From contig NC_043005.1 in NCBI RefSeq assembly GCF_006345805.1, forward strand, positions 109,639,382-109,703,381: 64,000 nt of DNA. Direction: 5' to 3'. This document shows, one piece after another, positions 18,567 through 58,948 of the stretch (the first letter of the stretch is position 1; each line of letters starts with the position of its first letter). Source of the stretch: Octopus sinensis. Lineage: Eukaryota. The position numbers and the translations under genes were made by a program. Under the pieces are notes generated by a model, which was not told the DNA's origin, ran no database searches, and was given only the letters and a program-made list of their open reading frames with translations.

Positions 18567-19617
18567 TATGGTTGATGCTGGGTCATAGTAGCAGTAGTAA
18601 TAATATTAACTTTAGTAGTTGTGGTGGTGTTACACTAACTTGTAGCAGTAGTAGTAACAATAGGAGCTTCATCAAAAGTTTTAGTAGGGCCAGAGGCAGT
18701 TGTCTCCCTTTCTCTCCCACAGGTATTTAAAAGTGGTCAATATTTGGTTATTAATGTTATTTCTTTGTTGATGCATTATTGTTGCATTGTGTAATCACTA
18801 AATTGATAAAAGGGAAACATCATAAACCTTGGTGGACTTCTCCTTGCACATGTGTCTGCATGTTCACTGTGTATACATACACACTGTGTAAATATACACA
18901 CCCCCCCCCCGTTGTTTGTCCAATTTAAACCCTGCACGACTTCTATACACACTGTCTTTCCTACCCGCATTGCTTCTTCACCAAACTTTGGCCGCCCTCC
19001 AATTCTTCCCCTCTCTTCCCCCATCCTCCTCCCCTCTTCCTCCCATCCTCCTTAATCCCTTCTTTCTCCTTTTCTCTGGTCACTGATTCTGTCCCCTGCC
19101 TTCCACCCTCTTGATTCCCTCTCTCTCTGTCTCTCTTTCTCTCTCTCTCTGCAACTGCTGCTTCTTAAACCATTCTGTTGGCCATCGTATCTCGACCAAC
19201 ATGGTCCCCGCTACCGAAACGGTAATTATTTCTACGCCAGCTATGTTGTTGTTGTTTTGTCTCATTTGTCTAAAGTCGTATGACAACCACCGTTATATAT
19301 ATTTTGTTTATTCATTACTGTTTTCAATTTCGTTTCGTCTCTTGTATTTACATCCGTCTTGTGCGTTCACATTCTGGTCTTCTACCAAGAAATCTAATGC
19401 TTACAGCTTAGTTTTTCTTGGGGCTGGCCGAGTTGGAGCAAATATCAGAATTGAACAGCCGAAATTTGCTATGATGATTCGGTGTCTGACTGAAGATTGA
19501 AGGCTTCGAATGATTTGTCTGTGTTCCGTGTTCGTCCCTTCCTGTATTTCACGTTCATTATATATAAAAACATTCATTCTTATATATATATATATTATAT
19601 ATATATATATATATACT

Positions 19618-25650: not shown

Positions 25651-25790
25651 ATATGAGTGTGTATGTATATATATATATATAGCTATATATATATATATTT
25701 ATATTATAGCGGACTTCTATATCTTTCGATGTTACTTGATTGAATATATAAGAGGTAAGTTTTTCCTAGCATTTTCAGATTTATAGGAAT

Positions 25791-25849
25791 ATTATGTCGA
25801 TAAAGGAAATGAACTTTACGATTCTAATCCAGAAACGATCGTCCATAAT
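25791..25849 (+). ncRNA. Degenerate type I hammerhead ribozyme
   Basis: Stem I attatg/cataat, GAAA, palindromic stem III acgatcgt, GTC site; the CUGAnGA box is mutated to TCGATAA. Confidence 0.5.
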
Positions 25850-26279
25850 TAATCCAGTAGACTGTGTGGGTTTGTTGTTTTCCTTTCTTCTTTTACCATA
25901 TATGAGTTACAAAGGCTGTTGTTTGCAGAGACTTATTTTTGTAGTAATAGTATAGTAGCCCGTTGACTGCTATTTCTAATATTTTTGGTATGTGGTTTAA
26001 GCAGCTTGTTGCAAAAAACCCTTTATTATAATTATATGAATTTTTACCGATTATGGTCCTTTCGATACCGAAATACTACTAGGTGAAATTTATTGATTTT
26101 ATTAAATTAATTATATTTCACCCTTTATCTGTATATAATATATATATATATTATATATATATATATATAATATATATATATATATATGGATGTATGGATG
26201 GATCTATGTGTGTGTATATATATATATGCATGTGTTTGTGTGTGTGTGTGTGTAAACTTCTTTCTATCCATCCTCCTCT

Positions 26280-26978
26280 CAGCCCTTCTAAAACACTTGT
26301 GTCCCACTCTTGTTATGAGAAATGTTAAACATTTGGTTGCTGAGTTCCTGCACATCTATTGAAATGCTTGTTGAGTTGAAGTTTTCTTGTGTTTGGATTA
26401 TCTATTTGTTGTCGGTGAATTGTCATGTATTTTCTGAGTGAATGTTTGTTTGGCCAATATAATTCTTGCTACAGCCACAGCACATTATGCTATAAATTGT
26501 TTTCTGAAAGGTAAAAGAAGTCATTTTATATTTTAAAAATTTTACCATTTTTCAAGCAGATCTTGGGGCCTTCAGTTATACTAATACAAATTACACGATT
26601 TGATCTTCAACGTTTTTTTAATTGTTGGGTTTTGTGTAATGTTGGTAAATAATTGAGCACTTGATAAAAGTTTTATATTTTTTTTAATGTGTGCAGCTGC
26701 TTTTTGCTTTTAATTAGTTTTTCTAAGATTTTTCTAATTCTGTGATTAACAGCAGTAAATTTTGACTAATTACATCAAAATCCCCAATATTCTTAGTGTT
26801 ATAAATTGAAATTTATGGTAAAACATTTACTTCTGTTTTTTGTTTTTACAGTTAATAAATCATTGATATTAATTGCCTCTGCTCTTTCAATTGCACTGTT
26901 AATTAGAGCAGATAACATCTTCCATTCAGAATATCTTTTCATTACTTTAGTTTTTTCTTCCAGGCATTTGGGTTTGAT
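26280..26978 (-). pseudogene. Penelope-like element linker plus GIY-YIG endonuclease, decayed
   Basis: LKNGKIFKI...SENNL...CCGCSKNYIGQT...MTIHRQQIDNPNTRKLQLNKHFNRCA across frameshifts. Confidence 0.8.
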
Positions 26979-33382: not shown

Positions 33383-33426
<44 letters not shown>

Positions 33427-33639
33427 TCAATATAGGGTGGCAAAAAATTTTGTAGAATTTTTTTGCCACCAGCGGCCTAGTGGAAAAAATTAAATAGTCA
33501 TAGACCATTTTTAAGTTCAACATCACATCAGGAACGGCCATAATAGGCCATTCACCCACTAGAAATAACAGCCAAAGCTTCCCGCAAATAAACATCAATT
33601 CCGTAAACCAGGAGAAAATTAAAAAACATTTACCCTGTA

Positions 33640-33745
33640 ATTTCTTATACGATGCACCGTTTCATCTACTGTTTAATGGTAAACTAACCTGATTAATTAA
33701 ATCAAGCCAATCTTCCATAGGCCCTTAGAATCATCAGTAAGAAAT
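33640..33745 (-). ncRNA. Type I hammerhead ribozyme (mirror copy)
   Basis: Reverse complement of 33858-33964 with the core intact. Confidence 0.75.
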
Positions 33746-33857
33746 AGCAAGTCGGAACAGATATTTTCACGAGGCATTTCCGACCCTGCCTCGGCAATAT
33801 CTGACCTAAAATTTTCAAATCATCGCACTCGCGCCAAATATCTGTTCCGACTTGGCT

Positions 33858-33964
33858 ATTTCTTACTGATGATTCTAAGGGCCTATGGAAGATTGGCTTG
33901 ATTTAATTTAATCAGGTTAGTTTACCATTAAACAGTAGATGAAACGGTGCATCGTATAAGAAAT
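33858..33964 (+). ncRNA. Type I hammerhead ribozyme
   Basis: Stem I atttctta/taagaaat; CTGATGA 33866-33872; stem II tcta/taga with a U.U at 10.1:11.1; GAAA 33941-33944; near-palindromic stem III acggtgcatcgt; GTA site 33954-33956. Confidence 0.75.
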
Positions 33965-34080
33965 TACAGGGTAAATGTTTTTTAATTTTCTCCTGGTTTA
34001 CGGAATTGATGTTTATTTGTGGTTGAAGCTTTGGCTGTTATTTCTAGTGGGTGAATGGCCTATTATGGCCGTCCTTGATT

Positions 34081-34146
<66 letters not shown>

Positions 34147-42397: not shown

Positions 42398-43527
42398 GGC
42401 AATGAGCTGGCAGAAACGTTAGCACATCAGGCGAAATGCTTAGCGGTATTTCATCTACCGTTACGTTCTGAGTTCAAATTCCGCCGAGGTCAACTTTACC
42501 TTTCATCCTTTCGGGGTCGATAAATACGTACCAGTTACGCACTGGGGTCGATATAATCGACTTAATCCGTTTGTTTCTCCTTGTTTGTCCTCTCTGTGTT
42601 TAGCCCCTTGTGGGTAGTAAAGAAGTAGGTATTTCGTCTGCTGTTACGTTCTGAGTTCAAATTCCACCGAGGTTGACTTTGCCTTTCATCCTTTCGGGGT
42701 CCATTAAATAAGTATCAGTTACGCACTGGGCTCGATATAATCGACTTAATCCGTTTGTTTGTCCTTGTTTGTCCTCTCTGTGTTTAGCCCCTTGTAGTAT
42801 TTCGTCTGCTGTTACGTTCTGAGTTCAAATTCCACCGAGGTTGACTTTGCCTTTCATCCTTTCGGGGTCCATTAAATAAGTATCAGTTACGCACTGGGCT
42901 CGATATAATCGACTTAATCCGTTTGTTTCTCCTTGTTTGTCCTCTCTGTGTTTAGCCCCTTGTGGGAAGTAAAGAAATAGGTATTTCATCTGCTGCTACG
43001 TTCTGAGTTCAAATTCCACCAAGGTCGACTTTGCCTTTCATCCTTTCGGGATCGATAAATTAAGTATCAGTTACGCACTGGTGTCGATATAATCGACTTA
43101 ATCTGTTTGTCTATCCTTGTTTGTCCTCTCTGTGTTTAGTCCCTAGTGGGTAGTAAAGAAATAGGTATTTCGTCTGCTGTTACGTTCTGAGTTCAAATTC
43201 CACCGAGGTCGACTTTGCCTTTCATCCTTTCGGGGTTGATAAATAAAGTACCAGTTACACACTAGGGTCGATATAATCGACTTAATCCCTTTGTCTGTCC
43301 TTGTTTGTCCTCTCTGTGTTTAGCCCCTTGTGGGTAGTAAAGAAATAGGTATTTCGTCTGCTGTTATGTTCTGAGTTCAAATTCCGCCGAAGTCAACTTT
43401 GCCTTTCATCCTTTCAGGGTCGATAAAGTACCAGTTACACACTGGGGTTGATGTAATCAACTTAATCCCTTTGTCTGTCCTTCTTTGTCCCCTCTAGGTT
43501 TAGCCCCTTGTGGGCAATAAAGAAATA
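42398..43527 (+). mobile_element. SINE family B tandem array (1 full plus 5 head-truncated units)
   Basis: Units start at 42398, 42628, 42797, 42980, 43164, 43348; period 184 bp for the last units. Confidence 0.95.
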
Positions 43528-47964: not shown

Positions 47965-48205
47965 TCATCATTATCATCATCATCATCATCATTTAATGTC
48001 CTTTTTCCTTGCTGGCATGGGTTAGATGGTTTGACTGAGGTCTGGAAGCCAGCAGCTGAACCAGGCAATGTTCTACAGCTGAATGCCCTTCCTAGCATAG
48101 ACCATTCCGAGAGTGTAGTGGGTGCTTTTTACATGCCACCAGCACAGGAGCCAGTCAGGCAGGCCTGACATCAATCACGTTTGGATAGTGCTTTCTATGT
48201 GATAT
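47965..48205 (-). mobile_element. RTE-type 3' end (family E), diverged
   Basis: (CAT)n...gcatgggttagatgg...tgcccttcc...gtgggtgctttttacatgccacc. Confidence 0.7.
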
Positions 48206-48400
48206 CTAAATATATATATATATATATGTATGTATACAAATAAGAAAATGGAGGAATAAATTCATTTCAATCATCAACTTACAGATATTACCATTTCATA
48301 TTATCTATTAACTATATAAATAAGAACATCCAAATCGAACAAAAGAATATACATCAATATGCAAGATAAGAATACCATAAGAATAATACACATAAAATGG

Positions 48401-48440
48401 TCCTTACAGCTGTTTCAGCCTACAGATGCTTCACCAACAG
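48401..48440 (-). ncRNA. Degenerate hammerhead remnant
   Basis: TTGGTGA agc...gct GAAA cagct GTA with palindromic acagctgt; stem I and 5' core not intact. Confidence 0.3.
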
Positions 48441-48525
48441 TATACTGGATAACTGATATCCCATAGTGGATTACCCTCATAACCCCTATCTTACTTTGTA
48501 CTATATATATATATATATATATATG

Positions 48526-49050
48526 AAATAGTGTACATTTAAACACAAGAGAAATTACCTTTACCAGGTAATTTTACATGCTAGAAGAGGCAGACAAAAA
48601 TGACCAATACCACATTTAAGAGCAATTTCAAAGGGAATGGAAAATAAAAACTTCTTAACTCGTTATATTTTTATGGTTATACCTAGGTTTCAAATTTTTT
48701 AGCAAATAAAATAATTTACCAGGCGAAATTCTCATCAGTAACCATGCCATAACATTAACACATAATTTAGAAATGAATAACATGTGTCTCATCATTATAT
48801 GTTATAATTTTTCAAATTCACCGCGCAAGTGCAGTTTCAGTTGGCAGCACATGAGAAATGCTGAACTGATCTTCGAAAGGCTAAAATCATATACGTAAAA
48901 TATGTAGGGTAGTGAATATTTTTAGAAATTTCCCTACCAGTGGCCTAGCATGTATAAAAAGTCAATAGACAACATATTCTCAATATAAAATAGTATACAT
49001 TTAAACACAAGAGAAATTACCTTTCACAGGTAATTTTAAATGATAGAAGA
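48526..49050 (-). mobile_element. Retrozyme-like / Penelope pLTR-like element: 462-bp unit plus 63-bp terminal direct repeat
   Basis: Direct repeats 48526-48588 and 48988-49050 (5 mismatches); internal hammerhead; (TA)n on the left, SINE A on the right. Confidence 0.75.
48673..48745 (-). ncRNA. Type I hammerhead ribozyme
   Basis: Minus strand atggtta CTGATGA gaattt...aaattt GAAA cctag GTA taaccat: 7-bp stem I, 6-bp stem II, palindromic stem III acctaggt. Confidence 0.85.
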
Positions 49051-49052
49051 TA

Positions 49053-49501
49053 TAGGCGTAGGAGTGGCTGTGTAGGCGTAGGAGTGGCTGTGTAGGCGTA
49101 GGAGTGGCTGTGTAGGCATAGGAGTGGCTGTGTGGTAAGTATCTTGCTTACCAGCCACATGGTTCCGGATTCAGTCCCACTGCGTGGCACCATGGGCAAG
49201 GGTCTTCTACTATAACCTTGGGCCGACCAAAGCCTTGTGAGTGGATTTTGTAGATGGAAACTGAAAGAAGCCCGTCGTATATATGTATATATGTGTGTGT
49301 GTTTGTGTGTCTGCGTTTGTCCTCCCAACATTGCTTGACAACTGATGCTGGTGTGTTTATGTCCATGTAACTTAGCGGTTCGGTAAAAGAGGCCGATAGA
49401 ATAAGTACTAGGCTTACAAAGAATAAGTCCTGGGATCGATTTGCTCAACTAAAGGTGGTGCTCCAGCATGGACACACTCAACTGAATGAAATAAGTAAAA
49501 G
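49053..49501 (+). mobile_element. SINE family A with four tandem copies of its first 20 bp
   Basis: taggcgtaggagtggctgtg at 49053, 49073, 49093, 49113. Confidence 0.9.
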
Positions 49502-49541
49502 ATTATATATATAATATATATACTATATATATATATATATG

Positions 49542-58846: not shown

Positions 58847-58893
58847 AAAATCTGTTACTCTGAGTTTCTCGTTGCCGTTCATCAGACAGTTTT
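58847..58893 (-). ncRNA. Minimal type I hammerhead ribozyme (mirror copy)
   Basis: Reverse complement of 58902-58948. Confidence 0.7.
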
Positions 58894-58901
58894 TGCTAGA
58901 A

Positions 58902-58948
58902 AAAACTGTCTGATGAACGGCAACGAGAAACTCAGAGTAACAGATTTT
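58902..58948 (+). ncRNA. Minimal type I hammerhead ribozyme
   Basis: ctgt CTGATGA acg-gcaa-cga GAAA ctcaga GTA acag; stem III actc-a-gagt. Confidence 0.7.

What the first reader, a model, noticed from the sequence alone, without database searches (positions are those of the whole stretch)
48526..49050. 462-bp hammerhead unit with a 63-bp terminal redundancy, circularly permuted relative to its relatives
Seen: 48526-48588 repeats at 48988-49050 (5 mismatches) and contains its own hairpin aaattacct...aggtaattt. The cleanest hammerhead of the window lies inside. The terminal hairpin lies upstream of the ribozyme here but downstream in the 25.8-kb and 33.5-kb elements, giving the same circular order with a different linear start. 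No coding capacity. Inference: a ~1.14-unit copy is expected from reverse transcription around a circular RNA (non-LTR retrozyme) or from a tandem pLTR transcript.
Basis: partly seen in the sequence, partly recalled or inferred. Interest (0 to 1): 0.85.

Follow-up and report, generated by a model that had tools for sequence, protein, structure and literature searches.

The report
Penelope-mobilised hammerhead repeat, two fixed ends
This is one aged copy of a protein-free 462-base repeat, with hundreds of copies found and likely thousands present in an animal genome, that carries a predicted self-cutting RNA motif; its copies end at two preferred sites beside TA microsatellites and start anywhere, so it is likely pasted in by a borrowed Penelope-type retrotransposon enzyme, and its 63-base end repeat does not by itself show a circular RNA.

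Summary
The repeat (5 mismatches in 63) and a type I hammerhead on the minus strand are real; stems covary across sibling families. The unit is a dispersed non-coding family (289 exact hits of a 23-mer; roughly 2,600 copies estimated; about 8% from the majority base). Copy ends are not dispersed permutations. Of 88 copies, 83 end in two windows about 160 and 240-250 nt after the predicted cut, mostly at a microsatellite. 5' ends are random, 32 of 34 cross the cut site, and 40 of 88 carry an inverted 5' arm. Head-to-head arms use different end sites in 33 of 39 cases. This is the Penelope-like (PLE) insertion footprint, and intact RT+GIY-YIG PLE ORFs exist in the genome, though no sequence-matched partner was found. 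The 63-bp redundancy is what a 530-nt copy of a 462-nt unit gives. It fits a circle, an uncleaved tandem transcript or a template jump equally; published PLE biochemistry needs no ribozyme cleavage. Verdict: new family of a known kind (retrozyme-like non-autonomous PLE). The scan already reported the same kind of element, and the two-arm pattern, in other families of this genome.

The parts
48521..49050 (-). 5'-truncated copy of the 462-bp hammerhead unit, 530 nt = 1.15 units, unit positions u1 to u68 of the second lap; G+C 30%
48521..48588 (-). 3' copy of the redundant segment; ends at the family's commonest 3' end (site A, u68, 159 nt after the predicted cut)
48988..49050 (-). 5' copy of the redundant segment; its start is an ordinary 5' truncation point
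48673..48745 (-). type I hammerhead ribozyme motif; predicted cut after GUA, between 48680 and 48679; palindromic stem III, predicted to favour dimer folding
48896..48948 (-). hairpin preceding the family's second 3' end (site B, u151-162); homologous to the terminal hairpin of the 33.5-kb element
48499..48520 (.). (TA)n microsatellite joined to the 3' end; likely target site
49051..49505 (+). unrelated SINE-like repeat (label recalled, not tested) abutting the 5' end, with a 20-bp tandem head; 8 copies of its core in the window
   Evidence: (family D18)

Best explanation
This is a 5'-truncated genomic copy of a non-coding 462-nt repeat with a predicted type I hammerhead, likely copied into a TA microsatellite by the reverse transcriptase/endonuclease of an autonomous Penelope-like element. 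Shown: family, end map, inverted arms, no ORF, read-through of the cut site. Inferred mechanism: the PLE enzyme nicks (TA)n, starts reverse transcription inside the RNA at one of two sites (A about u68, B about u151-162), copies upstream through the intact ribozyme site and stops at random. A copy longer than 462 nt therefore shows a terminal redundancy, here 63-68 nt. When both strands are extended, a head-to-head insertion forms, usually with one A and one B end. The template must be continuous across both the cut site and the unit junction. Untested split of my odds for that template: uncleaved tandem transcript about 45%, ligated circle about 40%, template jumping between monomers about 15%.
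For: 3' ends: 55 of 88 in u61-90, 28 in u142-163, 5 elsewhere, none within 10 nt of the cut; microsatellite within 20 nt after the 3' end in 66 of 88 against 23 of 88 at the 5' end. Three other anchors give 65 of 82 ends in A or B. 5' stops show a flat rate of about 12% per 20 nt; 32 of 34 copies reaching the cut site cross it. Inverted 5' arm in 40 of 88; arms A+B 33, A+A 6, B+B 0, p=4e-6; a stricter recount gives 26, 5, 1. Intact 775-781 aa RT+GIY-YIG ORFs in the genome; one family has a hammerhead-like motif 167-170 nt before (TA)n. Covariation: 15 of 22 pairs change on both sides across 20 sequences. PMC11167929 shows internal initiation at two sites, extension of both strands and no need for hammerhead cleavage; PMC8557442 describes 5' truncation, inverted 5' copies, the tail and microsatellite bias.
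Against: No autonomous partner with matching sequence was found: no shared coding 5' flank in 176 loci, the PLE pieces near copies are separate insertions, and only about 60 PLE loci of thousands of candidates were inspected. The A-B spacing (83-94 nt) is longer than the published 30-40 nt tail. PMC11167929 saw no difference in start site between strands in vitro, unlike the A+B bias here. 17 of 82 ends from the other anchors fall outside A and B, one of them at u373 beside the cut. End positions are blurred by TA microhomology. Ribozyme activity is untested and the hammerhead fold is not the lowest-energy fold of its stretch (-8.4 against -11.5 kcal/mol).
Confidence: 0.8

Rival explanations
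1. Strict circular-retrozyme reading: tandem transcripts self-cleave, are ligated to a 462-nt circle, and the enzyme reads around the circle, giving the redundancy. This is a sub-case of the best explanation with the template specified.
For: Copies longer than one unit always continue into the same unit, with no recurrent lap-specific differences other than at the TA junction; laps differ by 7.9% (454 of 5744 positions, 38 elements) against a median 13.3% between loci. Tandem arrays are rare, so tandem source loci are few. Circles are shown for coral, mussel and axolotl retrozymes (PMC7229834).
Against: A homogeneous tandem transcript or a jump on one RNA predicts the same. The circular fold of this aged copy is only weakly better than shuffles (z -1.7, 3 of 60 as low). 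PLE insertion in vitro used uncleaved RNA (PMC11167929). Eight of nine frog retrozyme dimers did not cleave in vitro (10.64898/2026.07.22.740005).
Confidence: 0.4
2. The unit is only the pseudo-LTR of an autonomous PLE, and these are 5'-truncated remnants of that element.
For: Same geometry as PLE 3' ends in this genome; most PLE insertions are truncated (PMC8557442); the partner search was limited.
Against: Copies that pass one unit run into another unit, up to about 3 units, never into an ORF; no shared coding flank in 176 loci.
Confidence: 0.12
3. The redundancy came from a local DNA duplication after insertion, or the family spreads as satellite DNA without an RNA step.
For: Two arrays share rare variants between laps (L012 1.4% lap difference, L021 5.4%), which fits later local duplication.
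Against: Here the laps differ by 6 of 68 with no rare shared variant, and dozens of loci show redundancies of unrelated lengths in exact unit register; fixed 3' ends with random 5' ends and inversions are a retrotransposition pattern.
Confidence: 0.06

Closest known systems
Metazoan non-LTR retrozymes (Cervera and de la Pena 2020, PMC7229834, parts 2-4 of 6 read; Li, Clavereau, Pollet, bioRxiv 10.64898/2026.07.22.740005, parts 1-3 of 5 read)
   Same: Short non-coding low-GC unit with a type I hammerhead and palindromic stem III; monomer and partial tandem copies; coexists with PLEs, the proposed mobilisers.
   Different: 462 nt, slightly above the 150-450 bp of the first paper and within 51-972 bp of the second; mostly sub-unit-length truncated copies instead of long arrays; unusually long stem II; cleavage and circles not shown.
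EN+ Penelope-like elements and their pLTR/tail (Craig et al. 2021, PMC8557442, passages; Frangieh et al. 2024, PMC11167929, parts 1-2 of 4; Cervera and de la Pena 2014, PMC4209133, part 1 of 4)
   Same: 5' truncation, partial tandems, inverted 5' copy, two alternative 3' ends downstream of the hammerhead, microsatellite targets, read-through of the ribozyme site.
   Different: No ORF; the optional tail is 83-94 nt; the two arms of inverted insertions mostly use different ends; no sequence-matched autonomous element identified.

Membership tests
Non-LTR retrozyme | Type I hammerhead motif in the unit | tested here: met
   Full core and stems; core intact in 80 of 113 copies covering it; 15 of 22 pairs covary, 81.6% of cells paired against at most 40.7% for slid controls (sequences were chosen by the core pattern and are related).
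Non-LTR retrozyme | Short, non-coding, low-GC unit without fixed LTRs | tested here: met
   462 nt, G+C 30%, longest ATG ORF 46 aa; redundancy length varies from locus to locus. PBS and PPT were not searched.
Non-LTR retrozyme | Tandem arrays with at least two consecutive complete hammerheads | tested here: inconclusive
   This locus has one hammerhead. The family has a few 2-3 unit arrays (L003, L012, L021); L021 holds two complete motifs 873 nt apart. Consecutive intact pairs were not counted genome-wide.
Non-LTR retrozyme | Self-cleavage of the RNA | not testable with these tools
   Needs in vitro transcription of monomer and dimer.
Non-LTR retrozyme | Accumulation as circular RNA | not testable with these tools
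   Only assembled contigs of guessed-RNA runs were offered.
Non-LTR retrozyme | Target site duplication longer than 4 bp when present | tested here: inconclusive
   Microsatellite flanks hide any duplication.
Autonomous EN+ Penelope-like element | RT plus GIY-YIG ORF | tested here: not met
   None in the unit or joined to it in 176 loci.
PLE-type insertion (works like) | 5' truncation, partial tandem and inverted 5' copy | tested here: met
   Flat 5' stop rate; 40 of 88 with inverted arm.
PLE-type insertion (works like) | Two internal start sites downstream of the hammerhead, giving an optional tail | tested here: met
   83 of 88 ends in two windows; spacing longer than published.
PLE-type insertion (works like) | Microsatellite target bias | tested here: met
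   66 of 88 at the 3' end.
Non-autonomous derivative of a given PLE family | Sequence homology to the pLTR of an autonomous element | tested here: inconclusive
   None in 30 GIY-YIG loci and 30 loci of a second PLE family, a small part of 5029 and 2917 candidates.

The most novel reading that the evidence does not exclude
The element is a genuine RNA circle that a dimeric Penelope enzyme reads from two different internal start sites at once, one per DNA strand, so that head-to-head insertions record an asymmetric RT dimer acting on a circular template. The A+B arm rule would then be a general, undescribed step of Penelope retrotransposition.
Probability: 0.25. Interest if true: 0.7.

Novelty: new member of a known kind. 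Interest (0 to 1): 0.38.

Why it matters
That PLEs mobilise animal retrozymes has been argued from co-occurrence and pLTR similarity. This family shows the PLE insertion footprint directly in its ends. It gives two mapped start sites and an A+B arm bias that can be tested in the existing in vitro PLE system, including whether a circle or a linear tandem RNA is the template. The locus itself is an aged, ordinary copy, and the scan has seen younger families with the same pattern, which would be better test material.

Tried and rejected
Rfam: no hammerhead match in the element; the whole-window list was filled by microsatellite matches. RNA runs: no RNA holder listed; four guessed-RNA contig sets hold family-like pieces at 82% likeness or more but none spans the stretch or shows a start, end or circle; this is no evidence either way. 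Partner hunt: PLE fragments beside L170, L102, L144, L233 and L224 are separate insertions; 29 of 30 loci of the L102 PLE family lack the unit. Folding: hammerhead stretch alone z -1.06; whole 525 nt z -3.45; circular monomer z -1.7. Lap comparison could not separate circle from tandem template. Fold-back origin of inverted arms: inner ends lie within 25 nt in 12 of 44 against 5.3 expected (13 of 5000 permutations), a minority only. A Pfam accession recalled for a PLE domain was not in the library. No earlier scan note matched this sequence. Searches for octopus plus hammerhead and cephalopod plus Penelope plus Neptune listed no description of this family; Repbase and Dfam were not available, and no supplements were read, so it may be catalogued there.

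Full report
Coordinates. The element reads on the minus strand. u is the position in the 462-nt unit, with u1 = window 49050; the predicted cut follows u371.

Observation. The two 63-nt segments match with 5 mismatches and extend to 68 nt. The minus strand holds a full type I hammerhead at 48745-48673 with a 7-bp stem I, a long two-part stem II and a stem III of two pairs around a palindrome. Such weak palindromic helices III are described as needing dimer folding (PMC4209133, part 1 read). The constrained monomer fold is -8.4 kcal/mol against -11.5 for the best fold, and the palindrome duplex is -11.4. Rfam does not detect it. A gapped pattern found 161 matches with the same core and stem III in the genome, control 0, from several sibling families. 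In an alignment of 20 of them, 15 of 22 pairs change on both sides, 6 of 7 in stem I; no shuffle of 500 reached the paired share or the covariation score, while 23 of 500 reached the count of covarying pairs. These sequences are related and were picked by the core pattern, so this supports the stems, not activity. The longest ATG ORF is 46 aa.

Family. The window lies in a 2.72-Gb animal genome; earlier scan notes call it an octopus, which I did not test. A DNA search gave 2837 candidates, 40 scored. A 23-mer from the repeat has 289 exact matches, control 0. Of 55 copies chosen otherwise that cover it, 6 match exactly, a rough estimate of 2,600 copies. Copies lie a median 7.9% from the majority base; the window copy differs at 37 of 525 positions. 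The family is not young.

End map. I fetched 90 loci from the first 100 listed 23-mer matches. Ten were left out: six already held from earlier searches that favoured long copies, two second arms of fetched loci, two for call size. After dropping one local duplicate and one double-counted insertion, 88 remained. 3' ends: 55 in u61-90 (22 exactly at u68), 28 in u142-163 (12 at u162, 4 at u151), 5 elsewhere, none within 10 nt of the cut. A microsatellite follows in 66 of 88 and precedes the 5' end in 23 of 88. 5' ends stop at a roughly constant 12% per 20 nt; 34 copies reach the cut site, 2 stop within 3 nt of it and 32 cross it. Because this anchor favours nearby ends, I repeated the map with anchors at u210-228, u308-320 and u357-376 (100 loci; 15 not family or below score, 3 duplicates): 49 A, 16 B, 17 elsewhere, one of these at u373. 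The unit has other TATA-like words at u98, u248-255, u290 and u373 that are barely used, so microhomology alone does not explain the two windows, although it blurs the exact end.

Inverted arms. 40 of 88 copies have an inverted family piece at the 5' end. Prompted by an earlier scan note on another family, I mapped both arms. Of 59 inverted insertions among 152, 39 have both ends in A or B: 33 A+B, 6 A+A, 0 B+B, binomial p=4e-6 against independent choice. A stricter de-duplication left 44 insertions with 26, 5 and 1. Copies without an inverted arm end 59 A, 22 B, 12 other. The 33.5-kb element in the window shows the same thing: two head-to-head arms ending 226 and 128 nt after their cuts.

The redundancy. 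The window copy is 530 nt, ends at site A in (TA)n, and starts at u1 next to TATA and a SINE-like repeat. Any copy longer than 462 nt shows such an overlap: 38 of 184 distinct elements do, with 37 to over 900 overlapping positions, most of them from the search that favours long copies; in the unbiased set 7 of 88 exceed one unit, four of them complex. Laps differ by 7.9% and show no recurrent lap-specific variant apart from the TA junction. The template was thus continuous and homogeneous across the junction, which fits a circle, a uniform tandem transcript or a jump on the same RNA. Two arrays share rare variants between laps and may be later local duplications.

Permutation claim. The repeat's hairpin flanks the ribozyme on both sides and is unrelated to the neighbours. 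The hairpin at 48896-48948 is homologous to the terminal hairpin of the 33.5-kb element (0 of 1000 shuffles) but not of the 25.8-kb element (619 of 1000). It precedes site B. This copy ended at A, so that hairpin appears only upstream. The circular order is shared; the different start is a choice between two fixed sites, not a free permutation.

Partner. The genome has 5029 GIY-YIG candidates, with open frames of 775-883 aa. Two ORFs tested carry RT and GIY-YIG domains and a cysteine-rich linker of the kind described for Neptune and Nematis (PMC8557442); I built no tree, so the clade is a lead. One family ends with a hammerhead-like motif 167-170 nt before (TA)n, close to the 159 nt of site A. 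No ORF is joined to our unit: 5' flanks of 176 loci share only duplicates, simple repeats and SINE-like repeats, and nearby PLE pieces are separate. The partner is unidentified.

Mechanism and literature. Frangieh et al. (PMC11167929) show that a purified PLE protein nicks AT-rich DNA on both strands, starts inside the RNA at two sites downstream of the hammerhead, which yields the optional tail, is predicted to be a dimer, and uses uncleaved RNA. This accounts for the fixed ends, the read-through of the cut site and the head-to-head arms without a circle. It does not predict the A+B bias. Cervera and de la Pena (PMC7229834) show circles for other animal retrozymes and propose PLEs as mobilisers; Li et al. 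(10.64898/2026.07.22.740005) tie retrozymes to pLTRs and found cleavage in 1 of 9 dimers. Shown here: structure motif, family, ends, arms, no ORF. Inferred: PLE mobilisation, priming at (TA)n. Untested: cleavage, expression, circularity.

Verdict. A real feature and a new family of a known kind, best called a retrozyme-like non-autonomous Penelope-type element. The scan has reported the same kind of element from several other families of this genome. Interest 0.38.

Noticed in passing
window 33420-34085: Head-to-head hammerhead element of another family; arms end 226 and 128 nt after the predicted cuts, both in (TA)n, the same two-site pattern.
   Followed up: partly
window 48200-48498, minus strand: Directly beyond the (TA)n, a remnant with a degenerate hammerhead (GAAA, palindrome, GUA intact; first core half altered) ending 178 nt later at (TA)n; a further family in the same microsatellite.
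   Followed up: partly
window 25700-26130, plus strand: Degenerate hammerhead (core word altered) about 290 nt before (TA)n; no detectable homology to this unit.
   Followed up: partly
window 26334-26909 and 18710-18868, minus strand: Broken PLE endonuclease-region remnants (tblastn E 2e-14 and 1e-6).
   Followed up: no
L253 674-4374, L256, L258: Apparently young PLE family (many equal-scoring copies, 781-aa RT+GIY-YIG frame) preceded by an overlapping upstream open frame of up to 479 aa with no significant Pfam match; its hammerhead-like motif has an altered first core word.
   Followed up: partly
L269, L272, L278, L280, L283, L285, L252: Sibling hammerhead families with periods of about 426, 443 and 545 nt and compensatory stems; they also end at microsatellites and form inverted pairs.
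   Followed up: partly
runs X1 and X9, window 48597-48817: Contigs from two differently labelled organisms carry a sibling variant with the same 31 differences, including changed stem I and a GUC cut triplet.
   Followed up: no
window 58863-58932: Inverted pair of a short motif with CUGAUGA and GAAA on both strands; stems not checked.
   Followed up: no
window 42445-43527: Six tandem copies of a 184-bp unit.
   Followed up: no
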